From a virus: DNA of 64,000 nucleotides. The notes beneath the pieces were generated by a model. It saw only the letters and a list, made by a program, of their open reading frames with translations, searched no databases and was not told the DNA's origin. Shown piece by piece: positions 24,702-41,325 of the stretch. A program made the translations under genes and the position numbers. The stretch is taken from the IMG/VR virus record IMGVR_UViG_3300048903_000225. The stretch is one strand, 5' to 3'. Position 1 is the stretch's first letter. Each line of letters opens with the position of its first letter.

Positions 24702-25075
24702 TGACCCAGCTCTATATTCCTGCCCTCAAGGATCGCATCCGGCTGCTCGAACCCCTCTTCGTCGAGGTGACCGAGGACAGCGTGTGGGGTCTCCACAGCA
24801 CAGCGTGGGCAATCGAGCGGCCGGGCGAGCCGTGGAATTATCTCGCGAGCAAGACGCTGCCCGGCTTCACGCTGGAAGCGGGAACGGTGCTGGAGTTCAA
24901 GCGCTACTTCATCAGCACCCATGCGAAGGAAGATCGCGTGAAGGTGGTGATCTTCGCCAGCCCTCGCCGCGACCTGTTCCCGCGCTCCCGAGGCGGCACC
25001 GGCCAGACGATCGACATGGACCTCTCGGTCGCGGTCCTGAACCGGATCGAATACGAGAAGATGGAGGAAGTATGA
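24701..25075 (+). CDS. Hypothetical protein
   Basis: GGAGG SD; TGATG coupling. Confidence 0.7.
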   Translation: MTQLYIPALKDRIRLLEPLFVEVTEDSVWGLHSTAWAIERPGEPWNYLASKTLPGFTLEAGTVLEFKRYFISTHAKEDRVKVVIFASPRRDLFPRSRGGTGQTIDMDLSVAVLNRIEYEKMEEV

Positions 25076-25623
25076 CCATCTGGAAGCAGCTCGATAGCGC
25101 CATTGCGTTCGCCGCGACGGCGCATGCCGGGCAGGTGCGCAAATACAGCGCCCTGCCTTACATCGTTCACCCGATCGAGGTCATGGAGATCGTTCTGACG
25201 CGATCGGTCCTGCCGGTTACGGAGGACCAGCTGGTCGCCGCCGTGCTGCACGACGTCGTCGAAGACACGCCCGTCGGCTTGCGCGACATCACGCGGCGCT
25301 ACGGTCCCGAGGTGGCCCGTCTGGTCTACGAGCTGACGGATCAGTTCACCGATCCCAAGCTCGGCAACCGGGCGGCGCGCAAGGCGATGGAGCGCGAGCG
25401 GCTCGCCACGATCTCCGCGGAGGCGCAGACCATCAAGTACGCCGATTTCATCTCCAACACGAAATCGATCGTCGAACACGATCGCAATTTCGCTCGCGTC
25501 TACCTCGCCGAGAAGGAAGCGATCCTCAAGGTGATGCGCGAGGGAGACGAGGCGCTGCTGAGCGCCGCCGAGCTTTCCCTGCAATGGGGACAAACCCAAC
25601 TGGTACAGGAGGCATTGCGATGA
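25072..25623 (+). CDS. Mesh1/SpoT-type HD hydrolase (small alarmone hydrolase family)
   Basis: FAATAHAGQVRKYSALPYIVHPIEV, AAVLHDVVEDT, VYELTD, IKYADFISN. Confidence 0.88.
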   Translation: MTIWKQLDSAIAFAATAHAGQVRKYSALPYIVHPIEVMEIVLTRSVLPVTEDQLVAAVLHDVVEDTPVGLRDITRRYGPEVARLVYELTDQFTDPKLGNRAARKAMERERLATISAEAQTIKYADFISNTKSIVEHDRNFARVYLAEKEAILKVMREGDEALLSAAELSLQWGQTQLVQEALR

Positions 25624-26336
25624 CCTTTCGCTACTCGCTGGTCTCGGACCTGCATCTCGACTTCCCGCATCCGAAGACGCCTGCGATGGAGCAGTTCGTC
25701 ATCGTCGCGGGCGATTGCGCCAACGGCTTGCTAGGGTTGAAATACTTGAGCAAACTCAAGCGGAAAGGCCATACGGTCTTCGCGGTCGACGGCAACCACG
25801 AGCACTATGCGAACCGCGCGCAGGGCCGGACGATCGCCGATACAGAGAAGGCGTTCTACATCGGCCTGGATCAGGCGCTGTTTTATGATGTACCCGACGA
25901 ACCGCTCCGGATCATCGGCTGCAACGGCTGGTACAACGTCGAGGACGAGCGCCACTGGCTTGGCTACATGAACGACGGTCGGAACTGTGCGGCCGATGCT
26001 GTAATGGTCAACGAGAAGGCGCGCGAGCAGGCGCTGTGGATGGAAGCGCAGCTGGCGATGGTGCCGACCGGCGCTCGCGCGATCGTCGTGACGCACACGG
26101 CGCCGTGCGAGGAGTCGCTGGATCCCAAATACGTGGGATCATCCGGCAACGACTACTACGTCAACAAGCTGATGACGCCGCTGCTCGCCGGCTTCCGTGA
26201 GAAGATCGCGATCTGGCATCACGGCCACACCCATGCCGCCGTGGACGTCGTCAAGGACGGTGTCCGCATCGTCACCAACCCGCGTGGTTATCCGAGGGAG
26301 AATCCCGAATGGCAGCCCCTAACCGTGGAGGTCTGA
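25620..26336 (+). CDS. Calcineurin-like metallophosphoesterase
   Basis: SDLH, AGD, GNHEHY, THTAP, HGHTH, NPRGY. Confidence 0.9.
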   Translation: MTFRYSLVSDLHLDFPHPKTPAMEQFVIVAGDCANGLLGLKYLSKLKRKGHTVFAVDGNHEHYANRAQGRTIADTEKAFYIGLDQALFYDVPDEPLRIIGCNGWYNVEDERHWLGYMNDGRNCAADAVMVNEKAREQALWMEAQLAMVPTGARAIVVTHTAPCEESLDPKYVGSSGNDYYVNKLMTPLLAGFREKIAIWHHGHTHAAVDVVKDGVRIVTNPRGYPRENPEWQPLTVEV

Positions 26337-27274
26337 ACGACCTCGAAGACATCCCGAAGCCGTGGCGTCATGCGCTCGCCGCGGTGCAGGTCTGCTGCCC
26401 CGACTCGATGATCGCCGGTGGTTGCCTGCGCGACCGCGATCACGGCGTGAAGGTCAAGGACATCGACATCTTCGTGTCCTCTCGATCGAACGAGAGCTAC
26501 CATCAGGTCGAGAACGTGCTCAAGGATCTGCGGCGCGGCGGCTGGAAGGATGCTCAGGTCGACGACGAGAAGACCTACACCAGCACCGACCGCTATATCT
26601 CTGGCCTGATCAACGCGCGCTTTCCCGGTGCGCCGCCGATCCAGATCATCGTCGGCACCTTCGACATCGGCAAGGTGCTGGACGAGATCGACTTCGGCAT
26701 CTGCCAGATCGGCTATGACGGGCGCCGCATCATGCGGACCCGCTGGTACAATGACGGAGCATCGGCTCACGAATTTCGCCTGATCCCGAAGGTGAACGAC
26801 GAGGGCTTCATCCGCTCGATCAACCGGTGGGCGCGCCTCAAGGAGAAGTATCCGGAATGGAAGCTGCACCTCGGAAGTCGAGCCGAGCAGGCGTCGGGCG
26901 GTTGGGTGGACGTTTCCAGCCGTCCGGACATAGTGAACGTCCAAGGCGTGGTCAGTCAGAAGGCCGCAAGGCTGCTCAGCAAGCAGGTCATGTTGCAGGC
27001 GCTCGGAAACCGCGAGTTCGTGGTGCCGAAGGCTGCAGCGGAACGGCTTGCGCGGGAGCTGCGGAGCGGCGTGATCCTGCATCAGCACGTTCAGCATCCG
27101 GACAAGTTCGCGATCGAGGTTCGCGATCCGAACGACCGGCCGAAGGCGTTGTCGCTCCTGAACGAGATCGTCAAGGAGCGGGAGGTCATGATGGACGCCG
27201 TCCGTCGCCGAGCGCTCTCAAGTCCGGCCGGCTCGACTGGCATCTTGAGCAAGAGTACGACCGTGCCCATCTAA
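26309..27274 (+). CDS. Class II nucleotidyltransferase (CCA-adding / poly(A) polymerase head domain) with C-terminal extension
   Basis: IAGGCLRD...KDIDIF; IDFGICQIGYDG; 3' end possibly frameshifted. Confidence 0.75.
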   Translation: MAAPNRGGLNDLEDIPKPWRHALAAVQVCCPDSMIAGGCLRDRDHGVKVKDIDIFVSSRSNESYHQVENVLKDLRRGGWKDAQVDDEKTYTSTDRYISGLINARFPGAPPIQIIVGTFDIGKVLDEIDFGICQIGYDGRRIMRTRWYNDGASAHEFRLIPKVNDEGFIRSINRWARLKEKYPEWKLHLGSRAEQASGGWVDVSSRPDIVNVQGVVSQKAARLLSKQVMLQALGNREFVVPKAAAERLARELRSGVILHQHVQHPDKFAIEVRDPNDRPKALSLLNEIVKEREVMMDAVRRRALSSPAGSTGILSKSTTVPI

Positions 27275-27626: not shown

Positions 27627-27711
27627 CCTGCGCGGCCAGCTGATGGAGGCCAACAACACCATCCATCGCTGTCCGATGCCTGCTGGACCACCAAGATTGG
27701 ATTGCAAATGA
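27493..27711 (+). CDS. Small Zn-binding hypothetical protein
   Basis: GAGGAGG SD; MGEYADM start; CKCC...HRC. Confidence 0.6.
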   Translation: MMGEYADMEIDRWIGDCNWGSRRRVASAPRIPKCKCCGHPGAGYNLRGQLMEANNTIHRCPMPAGPPRLDCK

Positions 27712-29336
27712 CCCAGCCGTTGATGCTGCGCGATAAGCAGATCGAGCAGCTCGCCTTCTACATCGCCCACCCGAAGTGCCTGGATCTGTCCGATCCGGGC
27801 ACCGGGAAGACGCCGCCCTGCTGCCTCTATGCCTACTATATGTGGGATCGCGGGCAGCGGCGCACGCTCTGGTCGATGCCCAAGTCCTTGCTCAAGAAGA
27901 ACAAGAAGGAGCTTCACCGCTTCACGGAGTTCAAGGACGAGGACGTCGTGATCATGCGGACCGATCGCGCGAACCTGACCAAGAACTGGACGGGCGCCAC
28001 GATCGATGCCACGCGCCGGGTGGCGACGTGGCGGCTCAAGGACGGGCGCCAGACGCACGAGATTGATGCCGGCGGCCGGAAGCTCTACTATTTTGATGCC
28101 AGCAACACCGCTATCGTGCTGCGCACTGGCAAGGCTGTGCCGATGCCGGCGTCGAAGGACGATTGGTATCCGGTGGACCCCCTATTCGGCCCGGACGGTA
28201 AGACGCCCGTGAAGGAGTGGGTCGACGTCCCCGAGACGTTCAAGGATCTGATCGTCGAGGAGGCGAAGAAGGCGAAGGTCTTCATCTGCACCTTCGCGTT
28301 CATGAGTGCTCACTGGAAACGCCTGCTCCAGGCAGCACCCGACATTGATCTGCTCCTCGTCGACGAGCTGCACATGGGCTATGGCGGCCCCGAGTCGGCT
28401 CAGACGAAGTCGTTCTATTGGGTCAATCGCCATGTGTCTCGTTTCGTCGGGATGACCGGCACACTGATCAACGGACGGCTGGACAGCGCCTACCCCGCGA
28501 TCAGTGTAATAGAACCGCGCTATTATGGTTCCCTGCAGGGCTTCATGTATGAGCACGCCGCCGTCGTGGACGACTACGGCCGCGTGGTCGTGTGGAAGAA
28601 CGAGTCCAAGCTCAAACAAATCATCGAGAAGCACTCTATCCGGCGGACCTTCGAGGAGGTCTACGGCAAGGAGGACGTGGTGTTCTTCACCGAGACGGTG
28701 GAGATGGAAGACAAGGTTCAGGAGCAGTACGACCAGTTCGTGCAGCAGGCGCTGCTGGAGCTGGAGGACGGCCGTGTCCTCGACGGTTCGATGCCGGGCG
28801 TCAACGCGATCCGCTGCCGCCAGCTCATGAGCCACCCGGAGACCATGCTGACCGGCATCGGCAACTGGACGCCCAAGGACGAGCGGTTGCAGGTCCACTT
28901 GTCCAATGGCAAGAAGGCCCTGCTGTTCGCCTCGCTCAAGCCTGAGCAGGAGCGTCTCCTGCGCCTGGCGCAGGACATGGGGCTGCGCGCCGCGCTGATC
29001 AACAGCGACGTCAGCGGGCCTGCGCGGGCACGCATCGACGAGATGGCGCAGGCCGGCGAGCTGGACGTGATCGTGGCGTCGGGACCGACCGTCGCCGTCG
29101 GGTTCAACTGGGAGATGTTCGATCTCGTCGCCTTCGTGTCGATCGATTATCAGGACGTCAACATCCTGCAGGCCTACCGGCGCGCCTCGCGCGGCACCCG
29201 CACTCGAACCCTCTACGTCCTGTTCCTGCGCTACGAGAGCCGGGTGGAGGATCGGATGTACGACATCGTGAAGGCGAAGAGCCAGCTGGCCAATCGGGTT
29301 GATCCGACGCGGCCGGTCCTCGACTTTTCTTCCTAA
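27708..29336 (+). CDS. Superfamily 2 (SNF2-like) helicase
   Basis: DPGTGKT (Walker A), VDELH (Walker B), MTGT, GFNW, QAYRRASR. Confidence 0.9.
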   Translation: MTQPLMLRDKQIEQLAFYIAHPKCLDLSDPGTGKTPPCCLYAYYMWDRGQRRTLWSMPKSLLKKNKKELHRFTEFKDEDVVIMRTDRANLTKNWTGATIDATRRVATWRLKDGRQTHEIDAGGRKLYYFDASNTAIVLRTGKAVPMPASKDDWYPVDPLFGPDGKTPVKEWVDVPETFKDLIVEEAKKAKVFICTFAFMSAHWKRLLQAAPDIDLLLVDELHMGYGGPESAQTKSFYWVNRHVSRFVGMTGTLINGRLDSAYPAISVIEPRYYGSLQGFMYEHAAVVDDYGRVVVWKNESKLKQIIEKHSIRRTFEEVYGKEDVVFFTETVEMEDKVQEQYDQFVQQALLELEDGRVLDGSMPGVNAIRCRQLMSHPETMLTGIGNWTPKDERLQVHLSNGKKALLFASLKPEQERLLRLAQDMGLRAALINSDVSGPARARIDEMAQAGELDVIVASGPTVAVGFNWEMFDLVAFVSIDYQDVNILQAYRRASRGTRTRTLYVLFLRYESRVEDRMYDIVKAKSQLANRVDPTRPVLDFSS

Positions 29337-29345
29337 GAGAAATTT

Positions 29346-29373
29346 TGGAAACTACCCGGTACTTACCATAAAA
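29346..29373 (+). repeat. 28-bp regulatory repeat, copy 1 (candidate phage promoter/operator)
   Basis: TGGAAACTACCCGGTACTTACCATAAAA, identical at 41298-41325; AT-rich intergenic context. Confidence 0.85.
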
Positions 29374-29406
29374 TCACATTCATGAATTTATATATAGGAG
29401 ACTCCC

Positions 29407-29697
29407 ATGGGACAGAATGAAACCTGGAATGCCTCGCCGAGCGCGAGCCTGCGCACTGAGGCCCTGAACCGCAAGCTTGCCGAGGCTGGCGGCATCACGA
29501 TCGGCAGCGGCTGGCTGCACAAGAAGGGTGGCCGCTACATCGTCACCGGCAAGGCGATCGACACGGACACCGGCGACGTCCGCATCCAGTACAAGCGGTT
29601 CGGCGGCCCCGGCTACGATCCGATCGCGGAGCGCGACATCACTTTTTCTCGTCCGCTGTCTGAATGGACGGTTGACCGCTTCATCGAGCTTCGCTAG
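29407..29697 (+). CDS. Small SH3-like hypothetical protein (DUF1653-like)
   Basis: AGGAG SD; WLHKKGGRYIVTGKA...IQYK...FSRPLSEW. Confidence 0.7.
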   Translation: MGQNETWNASPSASLRTEALNRKLAEAGGITIGSGWLHKKGGRYIVTGKAIDTDTGDVRIQYKRFGGPGYDPIAERDITFSRPLSEWTVDRFIELR

Positions 29698-29918
29698 GCG
29701 AGTTCTTCCAGCTTCGGCTGGGCGGTGCGTTCGGACCCGGCTTCGATGCCGGCGCCTCCACCATTGCTGGTGCCCAACACCGGCATTGACGGGGGCGACA
29801 GGGATTCGACGGGCGCTCTGTAGACTGAAACGCGAATGACAACGACGAGGGCTTCGCCCTCCGCCTGGCGGCGTAAATGCACAGGGGTCTGGCCCACCTA
29901 GCAACAGAACGGGCCACG
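29698..29918 (+). ncRNA. ssrA: Circularly permuted two-piece tmRNA
   Basis: T-arm CCGGC-TTCGAT-GCCGG + CGCCTCC-A-CCA (ends 29763) lies upstream of GGGGGCG...GGATTCGAC (starts 29791); 7-bp acceptor stem with G3.U70; tag frame 29832-29876 ANDNDEGFALRLAA*; outer ends approximate. Confidence 0.92.
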
Positions 29919-29929
29919 AGTTTTACAGT

Positions 29930-30066
29930 CAGGCGGGTTCGATTCCCGCTCGCTGGCCGAGATTTGGTGAAGGAGCGCGGGTTCGACTCCCGACAGAGGG
30001 CGAAAGCCTTCATGCCAGTGCTTCCGGCGGTAGGAAGCGGCCCGACTGACCGCCGTAAGCGGTCAC
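29930..30066 (+). ncRNA. Unassigned structured RNA with two T-loop hairpins
   Basis: GCGGG-TTCGATT-CCCGC (29933-29949), CGGG-TTCGACT-CCCG (29978-29992), GNRA hairpin, closing stem CGCTGGC/GCCAGTG, two further hairpins. Confidence 0.5.
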
Positions 30067-30071
30067 CTTGG

Positions 30072-30148
30072 TGCGGGGTAGAGCAGCCCGGTAGCTCGTC
30101 TGCCTCATAAGCAGAAGGTCACCAGTTCAAAACTGGTCCCCGCAACCA
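30072..30148 (+). tRNA. tRNA-Met (CAT) on an fMet-like scaffold, CCA encoded
   Basis: Acceptor TGCGGGG/CCCCGCA, D stem GAGC/GCTC, anticodon stem TCTGC/GCAGA with loop CTCATAA, T-arm ACCAG-TTCAAAA-CTGGT; 77 nt. Confidence 0.95.
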
Positions 30149-30252
30149 AGATACCCGGTAACTTCTAAAAGGAGCTTTGCATGGCGCGAACATGAGCCTA
30201 TGACGGCTCCGTGCTTCGGCACGAACGACCTCGAACTTGGAAAGACATCCTT

Positions 30253-31137: not shown

Positions 31138-31301
31138 ACACCTTCCTCGGCATTGTCGCGCTCATCAGCTTTCTCGTCCTGATGACCTCGCTCCCGACAG
31201 CGTTCAATCCCTACGAGTATCAGTGGCAGCGCGACGGCGCCGCCGCTTGGTCGGTGATTGCGCTTATCGTGTTCTTGCTCAGCACATGGTTCATATCATG
31301 A
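31134..31301 (+). CDS. Small membrane protein
   Basis: ATGA overlaps; two TM segments. Confidence 0.6.
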   Translation: MNTFLGIVALISFLVLMTSLPTAFNPYEYQWQRDGAAAWSVIALIVFLLSTWFIS

Positions 31302-32062
31302 TCGATATCTATGACGGCAACAACGTGATGCGCCGGGCGATGGAGAAGCACGCCTTCGGCCCTCCGGCCATGTCGCTCCGCATGCGCTTCGAGCAGACCT
31401 GCGCCGCCGCGCCCGGAACCCAGTTCTGGGTGTGGGACGGCCGGCAGCACAATGAGCGCCGTCAGGATATCTATCCGCTGTACAAGGCCAATCGCGAGCC
31501 GTGTCCGGAGGACATCTTCGCGCAGATCTGCCTGTGGCGCGACGTGCTCAAGCACAGCCACGCGATCCAGATCGAGGTCCACGGCTGGGAAGCCGACGAC
31601 GTCATCGGCACGCTGGTCCGCAAGATGCCCGGCAAGTTCAAGGTCCACACCAACGACATGGACTATGGACAGGTCCACCACCTGTGCCAGCTCGACGGCG
31701 TGAACCTCAAGGGGGTGCCGCCGCGGTGGGTCGCTCTCTATAAGGCGATGGTCGGCGACACGAGCGACAACATCAAGGGCATCCCCGGCTTCGGTCCGAA
31801 GCGCTGGGTCGAGCTGGAGGACTACTGGCCCCAGATCGAACGCGCGATCGTAGCCGGGGCGCCGGAGGGCTTCATGGGCTTGCCGTTCAAGCCCGCTGTC
31901 GCCGCGTGGCTGACAGTGCCCGACAACATCGACCTGCTGCAGCGGATGCTGCTGGTCACCCACTTCCAGAACGTCCCTGACGACGAGATCGAGGGCGGCC
32001 TGTCGGTCGGCACGGTAAATCGTCCGGCCGCCCATGAGATGCTTTCGGAGTTCTTTTTATGA
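31298..32062 (+). CDS. 5'-3' exonuclease / flap endonuclease
   Basis: IYDGNN, VWDG, YKANR, EADDVIGTL, TNDMD, GDTSDNIKGIPGFG. Confidence 0.92.
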   Translation: MIDIYDGNNVMRRAMEKHAFGPPAMSLRMRFEQTCAAAPGTQFWVWDGRQHNERRQDIYPLYKANREPCPEDIFAQICLWRDVLKHSHAIQIEVHGWEADDVIGTLVRKMPGKFKVHTNDMDYGQVHHLCQLDGVNLKGVPPRWVALYKAMVGDTSDNIKGIPGFGPKRWVELEDYWPQIERAIVAGAPEGFMGLPFKPAVAAWLTVPDNIDLLQRMLLVTHFQNVPDDEIEGGLSVGTVNRPAAHEMLSEFFL

Positions 32063-34707
32063 GTGAGATCAAGAGCGTCCTCGTCGACAACCGCAACGTC
32101 AAGGACGTGCTGCCGGCGATGCTCGAAGAGCTGCGCGGCGCCAAGCTGTGGGGTCTGGACTGCGAGACGCAGGACGAGGGCCGGCACGACGGTCTGAACG
32201 TCTACAACACCGCAGTGCGCCACGTCTTCGATCACCGCCGCACGGTGATGACCGGCTTCTCGACCTACGTCGAGGGCAGTGACACCGCCTACTACTTCAA
32301 CCTCGCTCACGCCGACGTCGCCAACCGGCTGGCGCCGGCGATCGTGCAGGTGGTGCTGGAGGCGGTGCCGGACAGCGCGATCGGCGTTGCGCACAACCTG
32401 CCGTTCGAGCTGGTGATGTTCAAGCAGTGCCACGGCGTGGACCTGCAGAACTTCGTCTGCACGCTGCAGATGGCGGTGTCGCATCACGGCCCGGACGAAT
32501 ACGACCTGAACATGTTCCACAACACGCCGCTGCCGAGCGCCTTCCACAAGGTCGCGAAACAGGTGATCGTCGACTGGGCCTCCTACGAGGGTGGCCGGCC
32601 GACCGGCGTGCAGCAGGAGCTGCTCGGTAAGTTCATCGCCAAGGAGTCGAAGGCGGAGCACAGCTACAACGGCTACGTCAAGTCGATCGCCAAGGGCTAC
32701 GCCCTCAAGGCGCTGACGAAGAGCCGCTTCGGCGTCAGCCAGACGACCTTCAAGGAAGTGCTCAACGGCAAGGACCACATGGGTGAGCTGACCGGCGAGG
32801 AAGTCGTCGCCTACGGCGCCGACGACGCCTACTGGGCCGTCAAGCACTATCGCTGGATGTTCGACGAGATGCTGCGGTACAATCCGCACGCCCTAAAGGC
32901 GTTCTTCGAGACCGAAAACCCGATGGTCTACCTCTACGCCGATGCGTGGCGCGAGGGGATCCGCCTGGATCTGGAACAGGTCTTCGAGCGCCGCGACGTC
33001 GAGCGCAAGGACATGGCCGAGCTGCTGCGCGGCTTCAAGGCCAAGATCCGTGCCCTGTTGCCCTTCGATCCCGAGCCGCATCCGAAGCTCTTGGAGAAGG
33101 AGCTGAGCTGGTATCCGAAGGGCTGGCAGAAGAAGCGCAAGCAGATCGCCGAGTGGGCCGTCTCGCCGGATAGCGCCGACGATTTCACGCAGGTCTTTCA
33201 GGTCTCGAACCCGATCGGCAATGCGTGGGCCGAGGAGCAGGGCAAGAAGGTGCCAAGCGCCGGCAAGCTGAACCTAGTCTACTACCATGGCATGCGGACG
33301 ATCATGTACGATCTGATGCGCTGCCCGATCCAGTACGACGAGGGCAGCGTCGCCTCGGACAAGGAGGCGCGCGGCCGCATCCGTGAGAAGCTGGAAGCCC
33401 AGCTGCCGACGACCACGACCCCGATGGATATGGACGATCCGGCGACGAAGCGGCTGAAATTGTGCATGGGCGTGATGGGCGACCTGCAGACGATGGCTGA
33501 CATCGAGCAGCGGATGAAGCTATACCTGACGCCCTACACCCAGCTCATGGATCCGGAGACCGCTCGTGTTTATCCCTCGCTCTCTTCCCAGCTGGCTACT
33601 CGCCGGCTCGCTACTTCTTTTCCCAACCCCATGCAGCTCGCGAAGTCCGGCAACAGCGCCTACATCCGTTCTTTCTACCTCGGCGACGATGACGACTGTG
33701 TGGTCGTGTCGGCAGACTGGAGCGCGATCGAACTCGTCCTCATCGGCGACCAGTCCGGCGACCCCGGCTTCGCCAAAGTCTACGGGCAAATCCCCTACGG
33801 CGACATGCACTCCGGAGCTGCCGTTGATGCGCTGTCCGTCAAAACCCTCCCCGGCCTCACCGAGGAAGAGTTCCGAGAGTTCAAGTTCGGGCGCAACCCT
33901 AACAACCGAGTGCTACGAGATTTTTCCGGACGGGATCTGACGCCGTCCGACTATCACAAGTTCATGCGCGGCACCCCGGTCGGCAAGGGCGTGAACTTCT
34001 CGTACTGGTACTCGGGCGCGCTGTCGACGGTGGCGAACAATCTCAGCCTCTCCGACGAGGAACACTGGGAGCTGGTCGAGAACTACCGCAATCGCTTCCC
34101 GATCGCGGAGGCATGGCGCGTCGGCGTGCAGGACATGGCCGCCGTGCATGGCTTCATCGTGCTGCCCGACGGCCACCGTCGCGTGAAGTACGAGGTGACG
34201 CGGGACTGGGCCGAGGCGATGCGGAAGAAATTCAGCGACCTCTCGGCGGCTCCCGGTCTGGTCGCCTACGGCGATGTGGCGATCAAGCGCCTGCAGGGTC
34301 GCGGTCGCAATCAGGTCGTCAACGCCATGATCCAGGGCACCTGCGCCACGCTGGCGAAGCGCTCGCTGCTGCGGCTCAAGGAGCTGTGCGGCGACGCGCC
34401 GTACCGCCTGATGATGCCGATCCACGACGAGCTGGTCTTCTCGGTCCACAAGGACTACGTCATGGACTTCATCCCGCTGCTGCGGAAGGCGATGACCGAG
34501 CACCCGACGATCGTGAAGACGCTGCCGCTGCACTGCACGGTGGCGATCGGGCGGACGTTCAGGCCCTTCAACAAGAAAGATCCGAAGCTGTCACAGATCG
34601 AGCTGGACGAGGCGCAGAAGATTGACGGCATCGTCGGTGATGATCTAGAAGGTAAACCGCTCCCCGACGAGAAGGTCCGCGAGCTTCTGGAGTTTATGTT
34701 CTCATGA
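32059..34707 (+). CDS. polA: Family A DNA polymerase with 3'-5' exonuclease
   Basis: LDCET (ExoI), HNLPFEL, YGADDA (ExoIII), ADWSAIEL (motif A), GKGVNFSYWY (motif B), PIHDEL (motif C). Confidence 0.95.
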   Translation: MSEIKSVLVDNRNVKDVLPAMLEELRGAKLWGLDCETQDEGRHDGLNVYNTAVRHVFDHRRTVMTGFSTYVEGSDTAYYFNLAHADVANRLAPAIVQVVLEAVPDSAIGVAHNLPFELVMFKQCHGVDLQNFVCTLQMAVSHHGPDEYDLNMFHNTPLPSAFHKVAKQVIVDWASYEGGRPTGVQQELLGKFIAKESKAEHSYNGYVKSIAKGYALKALTKSRFGVSQTTFKEVLNGKDHMGELTGEEVVAYGADDAYWAVKHYRWMFDEMLRYNPHALKAFFETENPMVYLYADAWREGIRLDLEQVFERRDVERKDMAELLRGFKAKIRALLPFDPEPHPKLLEKELSWYPKGWQKKRKQIAEWAVSPDSADDFTQVFQVSNPIGNAWAEEQGKKVPSAGKLNLVYYHGMRTIMYDLMRCPIQYDEGSVASDKEARGRIREKLEAQLPTTTTPMDMDDPATKRLKLCMGVMGDLQTMADIEQRMKLYLTPYTQLMDPETARVYPSLSSQLATRRLATSFPNPMQLAKSGNSAYIRSFYLGDDDDCVVVSADWSAIELVLIGDQSGDPGFAKVYGQIPYGDMHSGAAVDALSVKTLPGLTEEEFREFKFGRNPNNRVLRDFSGRDLTPSDYHKFMRGTPVGKGVNFSYWYSGALSTVANNLSLSDEEHWELVENYRNRFPIAEAWRVGVQDMAAVHGFIVLPDGHRRVKYEVTRDWAEAMRKKFSDLSAAPGLVAYGDVAIKRLQGRGRNQVVNAMIQGTCATLAKRSLLRLKELCGDAPYRLMMPIHDELVFSVHKDYVMDFIPLLRKAMTEHPTIVKTLPLHCTVAIGRTFRPFNKKDPKLSQIELDEAQKIDGIVGDDLEGKPLPDEKVRELLEFMFS

Positions 34708-41297: not shown

Positions 41298-41325
41298 TGG
41301 AAACTACCCGGTACTTACCATAAAA
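41298..41325 (+). repeat. 28-bp regulatory repeat, copy 2
   Basis: Identical to 29346-29373; lies in divergent endolysin/sbcC gap. Confidence 0.85.

What the first reader, a model, noticed from the sequence alone, without database searches (positions are those of the whole stretch)
29698..29918. Phage-encoded circularly permuted (two-piece) tmRNA
Seen: the acceptor piece (T-arm, CGCCTCC, A, CCA ending 29763) precedes a 27-nt intervening segment with its own hairpin (TGCTGGTG/CACCGGCA), then the coding piece starting GGGGGCG at 29791. The acceptor stem has the G3.U70 alanine determinant; CGGGCGC (29810) pairs with GCGTTCG (29727) across pieces; the tag reads ANDNDEGFALRLAA*; a GGCCC/GGGCC stem follows. 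Established: permuted ssrA is typical of alphaproteobacteria, and ANDN...AA tags direct ClpXP degradation. The phage tmRNAs I know of are mostly one-piece, so a permuted one is unusual (novelty unverified). No smpB is in the window, so it would use host SmpB. Inference: the phage supplies its own ribosome rescue, perhaps resistant to host toxins or with altered degradation kinetics.
Basis: partly seen in the sequence, partly recalled or inferred. Interest (0 to 1): 0.85.

Follow-up and report, generated by a model that had tools for sequence, protein, structure and literature searches.

The report
Compact two-piece tmRNA gene in phage
This root-metagenome phage carries a real, rearranged ("two-piece") copy of tmRNA, the bacterial ribosome-rescue RNA; such genes are already known in phages, and this one stands out only for having lost the usual pseudoknot and long helix.

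Summary
Rfam's permuted-tmRNA model scores 51.4 bits (cut-off 47) at 29727-29823. The G3.U70 pair, A73, encoded CCA, 27-nt intervening hairpin, tag ANDNDEGFALRLAA* and GGCCC/GGGCC stem are all present.

The gene lies in the replication module of a Seuss/JWF-like siphophage, between the helicase and DNA polymerase genes. The closest relative, an 82.7-kb IMG/VR phage, has a tmRNA at the same site. Of 18 shared base pairs, 6 changed on both sides and none is broken. Both tags have 14 codons, start ANDND and end AA. So the gene is under selection and is not a recent host fragment. No close copy turned up in 401 sampled alphaproteobacterial genomes.

The novelty premise fails. A published survey counted 53 of 133 distinct phage tmRNAs as two-piece, including those of Caulobacter and Pelagibacter phages.

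What is less ordinary is the size. Only 41 nt separate the coding-piece start from the resume codon, against 80-89 nt in 62 of 64 bacterial genes. That leaves no room for pseudoknot 1, and helix 2 is 6-7 bp. About a fifth of parsed IMG/VR permuted tmRNAs share this compaction. This scan noted pseudoknot-free two-piece tmRNAs before, in Bacteroidota phages.

Function, processing and benefit to the phage are untested.

The parts
29345..29374 (+). Promoter-like site (TTGGAA, 17-18 nt, TAAAAT) with a TACCCGGTA box in its spacer. Candidate start of the transcription unit: 96-aa ORF, tmRNA, spacer, tRNA-Met.
   Evidence: Consensus scan: 2 overlapping sites against 0.2 expected. The box and the repeat at 41298 are. 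Function is inferred only.
29407..29697 (+). 96-aa ORF of unknown function just upstream. It sets the earliest possible 5' end of the acceptor piece.
   Evidence: Conserved in relatives L121 (44% over 61 aa) and L355. No Pfam or PHROG family at the cut-off.
29698..29763 (+). Acceptor piece at its maximal extent. 5' UUCG hairpin 29708-29721; helix 2a strand 29727-29733; GAC; T-arm 29737-29752 with a 6-nt loop; acceptor 3' strand 29753-29759; A73 and encoded CCA 29760-29763.
   Evidence: Rfam RF04321 and RF01849 alignments; coordinates. The 5' hairpin corresponds to the small hairpin at positions 40-52 of the alpha model. The true 5' end is unknown.
29764..29790 (+). 27-nt intervening segment, removed on maturation. 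Hairpin UGCUGGUG / CACCGGCA, ending UUGAC just before the presumed RNase P site.
   Evidence: The relative L355 has a 45-nt segment that also ends UUGAC. Cleavage is inferred from the Caulobacter two-piece tmRNA (Keiler et al. 2000, cited in PMC9004378).
29791..29816 (+). 5' end of the coding piece. Acceptor 5' strand GGGGGCG (G3 pairs with U70); D-loop-like ACAGGGAUUCGA 29798-29809; helix 2a strand CGGGCGC 29810-29816.
29817..29831 (+). 15-nt single-stranded linker in place of helices 2b-d and pseudoknot 1. A29828 lies 4 nt before the resume codon, the equivalent of E. coli A86.
   Evidence: Sequence. Distance distribution. The role of A86 is from PMC2481249.
29832..29876 (+). Tag reading frame: 14 codons plus UAA, ANDNDEGFALRLAA*.
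   Evidence: The relative encodes ANDNDTSEVYARAA*, also 14 codons.
29877..29918 (+). 3' end of the coding piece: 14-nt spacer, then the hairpin GGCCC / GGGCC (29891-29915) with the conserved loop ACCUAGCAACAGAAC.
   Evidence: Equals the last conserved element of the alpha_tmRNA model. A 19-nt motif spanning the last two stem bases, the loop and the first two bases of the closing strand is shared with 96 IMG/VR stretches and at least 120 bacterial loci, among them Bradyrhizobium, Afipia, Tardiphaga and Kordiimonas. The stem covaries in L355.
29919..30071 (+). Spacer with two T-arm-like hairpins (29934-29950, 29978-29994) and three further hairpins. Probably not part of the tmRNA.
   Evidence: Absent from the relative's locus. 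Weak local T-arm hits. Fold z-score -2.4. Unexplained.
30072..30148 (+). tRNA-Met (CAU), probably co-transcribed. Its 5' processing would also free the upstream RNA.
   Evidence: ARAGORN and Rfam, 63.5 bits. Absent from L355. Caulobacter phage CcrSC has the same order, tmRNA then tRNA-Met about 270 nt later.
30152..30160 (+). TACCCGGTA box before the 231-aa gene. It marks the downstream edge of the RNA insertion.
   Evidence: The same box precedes the homologous gene in L355 and L353.

Best explanation
The region 29698-29918 is a phage-encoded, alpha-type, circularly permuted tmRNA gene in a stripped-down form.

Proposed mechanism, with the basis for each step:
1. Transcription (inferred). It is transcribed with the upstream 96-aa ORF and the downstream tRNA-Met.
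2. Folding (shown by sequence and covariation). The acceptor stem, 29753-29759 with 29791-29797, closes the 27-nt intervening hairpin.
3. Processing (inferred from the Caulobacter two-piece tmRNA). RNase P cuts before G29791 and the 3' end is trimmed to the encoded CCA at 29763. This gives an acceptor piece of at most 66 nt and a coding piece of about 128 nt, held together by the 7-bp acceptor stem and the 6-7-bp helix 2a.
4. Charging and delivery (inferred). G3.U70 and A73 direct charging by host AlaRS, and host SmpB delivers the RNA to stalled ribosomes. No phage smpB was found.
5. Tagging (inferred). Translation resumes at GCG 29832, positioned by the A four bases upstream. It adds ANDNDEGFALRLAA, whose ...LAA end is a ClpXP-type degron.
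6. Benefit (inferred). The likely benefit is more ribosome-rescue capacity while host and phage mRNAs are being degraded during infection.
For: - Detection: RF04321 scores 51.4 bits against a cut-off of 47, E = 3.7e-07. The tRNA-like domain aligns to the alpha_tmRNA model.
- Conserved 3' end: the 3' hairpin equals the last conserved element of alpha tmRNAs.
- Syntenic relative: phage G003 / L355 scores 65.9 bits at the same site. Of the 18 pairs in the acceptor stem, T-arm and helix 2a, 12 are identical, 6 changed on both sides and 0 are broken. The G3.U70 pair, GGAC, UUGAC before the cleavage site, AAAC before the resume codon, the ANDND start, the 14-codon length and the terminal Ala-Ala plus stop are all kept.
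- Frame-setting base: there is an A at -4, the base that sets the frame in E. coli (PMC2481249).
- Not at a prophage edge: the gene is flanked by helicase and polymerase genes, and the 99%-complete relative has no integrase.
- Not a recent host copy: the best matches in 401 sampled alphaproteobacterial genomes are 24-88-nt fragments.
- Reproducible sequence: it is identical in contigs from other runs.
- Precedent: two-piece tmRNAs are common in phages of Alphaproteobacteria.
Against: - No RNA data exist. None of the 13 runs that hold the sequence is on record as RNA, so transcription, cleavage into two pieces, charging and tagging are all unshown.
- Pseudoknot 1 and helices 2b-d are missing. 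Pk1 is reported in nearly all bacterial tmRNAs (PMC1168896).
- The T-loop has 6 nt rather than 7. That was seen in only 6 of 229 parsed permuted tmRNAs.
- The alpha_tmRNA model stays below its cut-off and ARAGORN misses the gene.
- Three other relatives (Seuss, G001, G002) lack any tmRNA, so it is dispensable for this phage type.
- The covariation rests on a single relative.
Confidence: 0.8

Rival explanations
1. It is an SmpB (or AlaRS, EF-Tu) decoy. The tRNA-like domain titrates host SmpB and shuts down host trans-translation, and the tag frame is not used. This would resemble the domain-only RNA of mycobacteriophage DS6A.
For: A tRNA-like-domain-only molecule strongly inhibits tmRNA, perhaps by titrating SmpB (PMC4131195). 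Here the pseudoknot and long helix that position the message on the ribosome are missing. The tRNA-like domain is the best-conserved part.
Against: The resume context, the ANDND start, the 14-codon length, the terminal Ala-Ala plus stop and the 3' hairpin are all kept in the diverged relative. A pure decoy would not need them. Other compact viral forms also keep full ...LAA tags.
Confidence: 0.08
2. It is a decaying passenger: a tmRNA captured long ago that is losing parts (pseudoknot, helix 2, one T-loop base) and no longer works.
For: The gene is reduced compared with bacterial genes. The T-loop is odd. Three related phages lack a tmRNA. The neighbouring RNA content differs between relatives.
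Against: Six two-sided compensatory changes and no broken pair across the 18 compared pairs. An intact tag of equal length in both phages. The same reduction recurs in many unrelated viral contigs with intact tags, which points to selection for small size rather than to decay.
Confidence: 0.07
3. It is a tRNA-like cis element without rescue function. It could be a processing signal that separates the upstream mRNA from the tRNA-Met, or a leftover attachment site for integration into a host ssrA gene.
For: It sits directly after an ORF and before a tRNA in one likely transcript. tmRNA genes are common integration targets (PMC4383910 abstract).
Against: No tyrosine integrase in the 99%-complete relative. 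The position is inside the replication module. A processing signal or attachment site needs neither a conserved tag frame nor the 3' hairpin. No near-identical host gene was found.
Confidence: 0.03

Closest known systems
Two-piece (circularly permuted) tmRNA of Alphaproteobacteria, e.g. Caulobacter crescentus (Keiler, Shapiro and Williams 2000; Rfam RF01849, RF04321)
   Same: Gene order: acceptor piece, intervening segment, coding piece. Also shared are the G3.U70 acceptor stem, the encoded CCA, the helix 2a pairing across the pieces, the small 5' hairpin, an AND... tag ending in AA, and the terminal hairpin with the CC-AGCA-CAGAA loop.
   Different: No pseudoknot 1 and no helices 2b-d. The distance from the coding-piece start to the resume codon is 41 nt, against 80-89 nt in 62 of 64 bacterial genes. 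The coding piece is about 128 nt, against 160-220. The T-loop is UUCGAU (6 nt) rather than the alpha-type GGCRGUA. It scores below the RF01849 cut-off.
Permuted tmRNAs of cultured phages: Caulobacter phages phiCbK and CcrSC, Pelagibacter phages HTVC008M and Mosig, OM43 phage Melnitz, Sphingobium phage Lacusarx, Roseobacter phage DSS3_MAL1 (Buchholz et al. 2022, PMC9004378, Table S1)
   Same: A phage-encoded two-piece tmRNA of alphaproteobacterial type, apparently with no phage smpB. In CcrSC the tmRNA is likewise followed by a tRNA-Met gene.
   Different: The CcrSC gene spans the full RF04321 model (1-213, 75.8 bits, 306 nt) and has about 80 nt between helix 2 and the tag. This gene matches only positions 26-119. 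No DNA similarity to any of the 50,697 phage records outside the tRNA-Met. The phage backbone is a different type, Seuss/JWF-like at about 82 kb, whose type members carry no tmRNA.
Compact permuted tmRNAs in uncultured viral contigs (IMG/VR L051, L053, L198, L212, L015, L055, L058, L073, L089, L117; syntenic relative L355)
   Same: The pseudoknot 1 region is deleted, leaving 41-57 nt to the resume codon. Tags are intact (ANDNF...LAA). The 3' hairpin is the same. ARAGORN missed L051 and L053, the two of these that were tested.
   Different: Except for L355, they lie on unrelated, mostly low-G+C contigs and share only short stretches of sequence with this gene. This gene has the shortest linker of those parsed.
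Engineered E. coli tmRNAs with pseudoknot 1 replaced, and mycobacteriophage DS6A tRNA-like-domain-only RNA
   Same: They show that tmRNA tolerates loss of pseudoknots (PMC2481249), and that phages carry reduced tmRNA derivatives (PMC4131195).
   Different: The first are laboratory constructs in a one-piece RNA. DS6A lacks the tag frame altogether, whereas this gene keeps it.

Membership tests
Permuted (two-piece) tmRNA, Rfam RF04321 | tRNA-like domain in permuted order (T-arm and acceptor 3' strand upstream, acceptor 5' strand and helix 2a downstream) scoring at or above the curated cut-off | tested here: met
   51.4 bits against 47, E = 3.7e-07. The relative L355 scores 65.9 bits.
Permuted (two-piece) tmRNA, Rfam RF04321 | Alanine identity elements: G3.U70 pair, A73 discriminator, CCA end | tested here: met
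   GGGGGCG pairs with CGCCUCC, followed by ACCA. The G3.U70 pair is kept in L355 while pair 5:68 is swapped.
Permuted (two-piece) tmRNA, Rfam RF04321 | Tag reading frame: Ala resume codon, A at -4, hydrophobic Ala-Ala end, stop codon | tested here: met
   GCG at 29832, A at 29828...RLAA, UAA at 29874-29876.
Permuted (two-piece) tmRNA, Rfam RF04321 | Helices maintained by compensatory change in relatives | tested here: met
   6 two-sided changes and 0 broken among 18 pairs compared with L355. Only one relative was available.
Permuted (two-piece) tmRNA, Rfam RF04321 | Canonical 7-nt T-loop | tested here: not met
   The loop is UUCGAU, 6 nt. It is rare (6 of 229 parsed) but recurs in other viral contigs (L077, L140 and others), and contigs from other runs carry the identical sequence.
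Permuted (two-piece) tmRNA, Rfam RF04321 | Precursor cleaved into two mature RNAs; alanylation; SmpB binding; tagging of stalled peptides | not testable with these tools
   No RNA run holds the sequence. These need bench work.
Alphaproteobacterial tmRNA, Rfam RF01849 | Full-length match at or above the cut-off, including helices 2b-d and the pseudoknot 1 region | tested here: not met
   Local match only, model positions 82-175 of 355, 36.4 bits against 50. Only 15 nt lie between helix 2a and the resume codon.
Alphaproteobacterial tmRNA, Rfam RF01849 | Terminal conserved hairpin of the coding piece (loop CC-AGCA-CAGAA) and small 5' hairpin of the acceptor piece | tested here: met
   Alignments to L049, L051 and L053 and to the model consensus. 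A 19-nt motif spanning the loop and two bases of each stem strand is shared with Bradyrhizobium, Afipia, Tardiphaga and Kordiimonas genomes.
Phage-encoded (not host or prophage-edge) tmRNA | Lies among phage genes, not next to an integrase or host flank, and is not a near-identical host copy | tested here: met
   Helicase upstream, 5'-3' exonuclease and polymerase downstream. Gene order matches Caulobacter phage Seuss. No integrase in the 99%-complete relative. No close match in 401 sampled alphaproteobacterial genomes.

The most novel reading that the evidence does not exclude
The gene may be a working, naturally minimal tmRNA. It would be two RNAs of at most 66 nt and about 128 nt, with no pseudoknot, a 6-7-bp helix 2 and a 15-nt linker, functioning with the host's SmpB.

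The same stripping-down would then be a recurrent, phage-specific adaptation. It appears in 22 of 118 parsed IMG/VR permuted tmRNAs and in 0 of 64 bacterial ones. That would mean the pseudoknot ring is dispensable for rescue in vivo. Phages might discard it for gene economy, or to escape host controls that act through it.
Probability: 0.45. Interest if true: 0.55.

Novelty: new variant of a known kind. Interest (0 to 1): 0.38.

Why it matters
Phage-borne two-piece tmRNAs are known but unstudied at the bench. Nobody has shown what a phage gains from one.

This gene and its relative give a natural minimal design. It has a tRNA-like domain, a short linker, a tag frame and one hairpin. That design could test which parts of tmRNA are really needed for ribosome rescue, a question so far addressed only with engineered E. 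coli mutants.

There is also a practical point. ARAGORN at default settings misses this gene and similar compact ones, so phage tmRNAs are under-annotated. The newer Rfam model RF04321 finds them.

Tried and rejected
- ARAGORN: finds no tmRNA at default settings. At relaxed thresholds it finds the right tag but builds false one-piece tRNA-like domains from neighbouring T-arm-like hairpins. I did not use these models.
- Loop-to-hairpin pseudoknot: I asked whether the loop of the 3' hairpin pairs with the acceptor piece's 5' hairpin. The pairing is possible here and in L355, but only 7 of 144 genes with the same loop have a complementary site. Rejected.
- Metagenome scan with the resume and tag motif: 11 hits, all chance matches in unrelated DNA.
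- IMG/VR scan for the tRNA-Met plus box junction: 0 hits.
- IMG/VR scan for the shared resume motif: only the relative G003.
- blastn against 50,697 phage records: only the tRNA-Met matches.
- BLAST of the gene against 401 alphaproteobacterial genomes: fragments only, so no host could be named.
- RNA evidence: no RNA run holds the sequence.
- Soil relative in run X11: it has 732 nt instead of 370 between the upstream ORF and the tRNA-Met. Its sequence could not be retrieved for comparison.
- The two T-arm-like hairpins downstream: I considered them as part of the tmRNA or as a second tRNA-like end. They are absent from the relative's locus, so I left them out.

Full report
**Observation**

- T-arm CCGGC / UUCGAU / GCCGG at 29737-29752.
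- Acceptor 3' strand CGCCUCC at 29753-29759.
- ACCA ending at 29763.
- A 27-nt intervening segment with an 8-bp hairpin.
- GGGGGCG at 29791, giving a G3.U70 pair and an A73 discriminator.
- The cross-piece helix, 29727-29733 with 29810-29816.
- The frame GCG...UAA at 29832-29876, encoding ANDNDEGFALRLAA*.
- The GGCCC / GGGCC stem at 29891-29915.

Rfam's permuted-tmRNA model RF04321 scores 51.4 bits (cut-off 47, E = 3.7e-07 for the whole window). The older alpha_tmRNA model matches the same tRNA-like domain locally at 36.4 bits, below its cut-off of 50. ARAGORN misses the gene at default settings. At relaxed thresholds it finds the tag but assembles false one-piece models. Contigs from two other runs, together spanning 29405-30019, cover the gene without a single difference.

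**Context**

The window is a phage. It encodes a helicase (27702-29336), a 5'-3' exonuclease (31223-32062), a family A DNA polymerase (32059-34707), a class II ribonucleotide reductase, an SbcC-like protein, a DNA repair exonuclease and a J-type central tail fibre.

The nearest cultured phages are siphophages of 78-85 kb: Caulobacter phage Seuss (42% polymerase identity), Xylophilus phage Lumi and Achromobacter phage JWF. Gene order around the polymerase matches Seuss. The DNA occurs in root and soil metagenomes, and no RNA run holds it.

The tmRNA lies in the replication module, directly after a conserved 96-aa ORF. After it come a 153-nt structured spacer, a tRNA-Met (30072-30148), a TACCCGGTA box and a 231-aa gene. 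A promoter-like site carrying the same box lies at 29345-29374. The ORF, tmRNA and tRNA therefore probably form one transcript, but this is inferred.

**Relatives**

Seuss and two IMG/VR relatives, 97% and 92% complete, have no permuted tmRNA.

The closest relative does have one. It is IMG/VR contig 3300017689_000001 (82.7 kb, 99% complete), with 73% identity in the 231-aa protein. Its tmRNA sits at exactly the same place, between the 96-aa ORF homologue and the TACCCGGTA box. It scores 65.9 bits, and the locus has neither the tRNA-Met nor the spacer.

The two genes have the same layout:
- 5' hairpin, helix 2a, GGAC, T-arm, acceptor strand and ACCA;
- an intervening segment of 27 or 45 nt, both ending UUGAC;
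- the acceptor 5' strand, a D-loop-like segment and helix 2a;
- a linker of 15 or 18 nt ending AAAC;
- a 14-codon tag;
- a 14-nt spacer and a hairpin.

Across the 18 pairs of the acceptor stem, T-arm and helix 2a, 12 are identical, 6 differ on both sides and none is broken. The G3.U70 pair is retained and the 3' hairpin stem also covaries. The tags are ANDNDEGFALRLAA and ANDNDTSEVYARAA.

This is the pattern expected of a structured RNA under selection. It argues against a dead host fragment. A BLAST of the gene against 401 sampled alphaproteobacterial genomes gave only 24-88-nt partial matches. No smpB was found in the window or in the relative. The relative has no tyrosine integrase.

**What is and is not new**

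Two-piece tmRNAs in phages are established. Buchholz et al. 2022 (PMC9004378) found 53 two-piece forms among 133 distinct phage tmRNAs. Their Table S1 lists phiCbK-type and CcrSC-type Caulobacter phages, Pelagibacter phages, Sphingobium phage Lacusarx, Roseobacter phage DSS3_MAL1 and cyanophages.

I confirmed the CcrSC gene (75.8 bits, full model). It lies about 270 nt upstream of a tRNA-Met, the same order as here. A simple acceptor-stem pattern hit the 120-locus limit in IMG/VR.

**The compact architecture**

The distance from the 5' end of the coding piece to the resume codon is 41 nt here and 44 nt in the relative. It is 80-89 nt in 62 of 64 parsed bacterial genes. That leaves no room for pseudoknot 1 or helices 2b-d. 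The coding piece is about 128 nt, against 160-220 nt in bacteria.

Pseudoknot 1 was reported present in nearly all tmRNAs compared by Burks et al. 2005 (PMC1168896). However, E. coli experiments show it can be replaced (PMC2481249). The base that matters most for frame choice in E. coli, A86 at -4, has its equivalent here at A29828.

The same compaction occurs in 13 of 70 and 9 of 48 parsed viral genes in my two IMG/VR samples, with various intact ...LAA tags. It occurs in none of the 64 bacterial genes. Rfam alignments of two such genes show a clean deletion of the pseudoknot region.

The 6-nt T-loop is also rare (6 of 229), and all six other cases are on viral contigs.

These counts come from regular-expression parsing of loci chosen by sequence patterns. 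They are indicative, not a census. Earlier reports of this scan described pseudoknot-free two-piece tmRNAs in Bacteroidota phages. I did not test those.

**Mechanism**

Shown by sequence, model score and covariation:
- a permuted tRNA-like domain with alanine identity elements;
- a tag frame with a proper resume context;
- a conserved terminal hairpin.

Inferred from the Caulobacter two-piece tmRNA and general tmRNA biology:
- RNase P cleavage before G29791;
- trimming to the encoded CCA;
- alanylation by host AlaRS;
- delivery by host SmpB;
- tagging with a ClpXP-type degron.

The benefit to the phage is unknown. The simplest idea is extra rescue capacity while mRNAs are being degraded during infection.

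Rival readings are a decoy for SmpB, a decaying passenger, or a cis processing or attachment element. All three are disfavoured by the conserved tag frame and by compensatory changes with no broken pair. None is excluded without RNA and protein data.

**Verdict**

It belongs to a kind already known in phages. It is a structurally reduced variant that may be of some interest to tmRNA specialists. Interest is moderate to low.

Noticed in passing
window 29919-30071: A 153-nt spacer between the tmRNA and the tRNA-Met holds two T-arm-like hairpins (GCGGG / UUCGAUU / CCCGC at 29934-29950, and a weaker one at 29978-29994), a GAAA-tetraloop hairpin and two more hairpins. It is absent from the closest relative's locus, and Rfam gives only weak local T-arm hits. 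These could be decayed tRNA genes or an unknown structured RNA.
   Followed up: partly
window 30072-30148: The tRNA-Met (CAU) looks, from my memory of the E. coli sequences, like an initiator-type body. But it has a U1:A72 pair and only part of the G:C run in the anticodon stem. It is 77-88% identical to tRNA-Met genes of Sinorhizobium, Caulobacter, Aeromonas and other phages. Caulobacter phage CcrSC also places a tRNA-Met just after its tmRNA.
   Followed up: partly
window 29353, 30152, 41305, 43223, 9564; L355:2920; L353:2895: A palindromic TACCCGGTA box precedes the 231-aa gene in three related phages. In this window it also sits inside a repeated promoter-like element (TGGAAACTACCCGGTACTTACCATAAAA) at 29346 and 41298. 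It is likely a phage promoter or operator motif.
   Followed up: partly
window 24784-27274: Three adjacent genes upstream of the helicase: an HD_4 (RelA/SpoT-type hydrolase) domain protein (E = 8e-14), a calcineurin-like phosphoesterase (E = 2e-06), and a protein with a weak poly(A) polymerase / CCA-adding head-domain hit (E = 0.009, below the cut-off). Possibly a tRNA-end repair or alarmone-hydrolase set near the RNA genes.
   Followed up: partly
window 29470-30200, run X11: A soil-metagenome contig of a related phage is about 90% identical over the upstream ORF and nearly identical (1 difference in 131) over the tRNA-Met and box. It has 732 nt instead of 370 between them, with only the tRNA-like domain of the tmRNA aligning. 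The RNA cluster is mosaic among close relatives.
   Followed up: no
L051, L053, L043 (IMG/VR): ARAGORN at default settings reports no tmRNA in these three loci, although Rfam scores 81.6 and 84.6 bits for L051 and L053 (RF04321) and only 39.7 bits, below cut-off, for L043 (alpha_tmRNA). Two-piece tmRNA counts for phages based on ARAGORN are probably underestimates.
   Followed up: partly
window 29700-29705 and 29917-29922: The hexamer CGAGTT occurs at both edges of the tmRNA gene. This may be chance or a trace of how the cassette was inserted.
   Followed up: no
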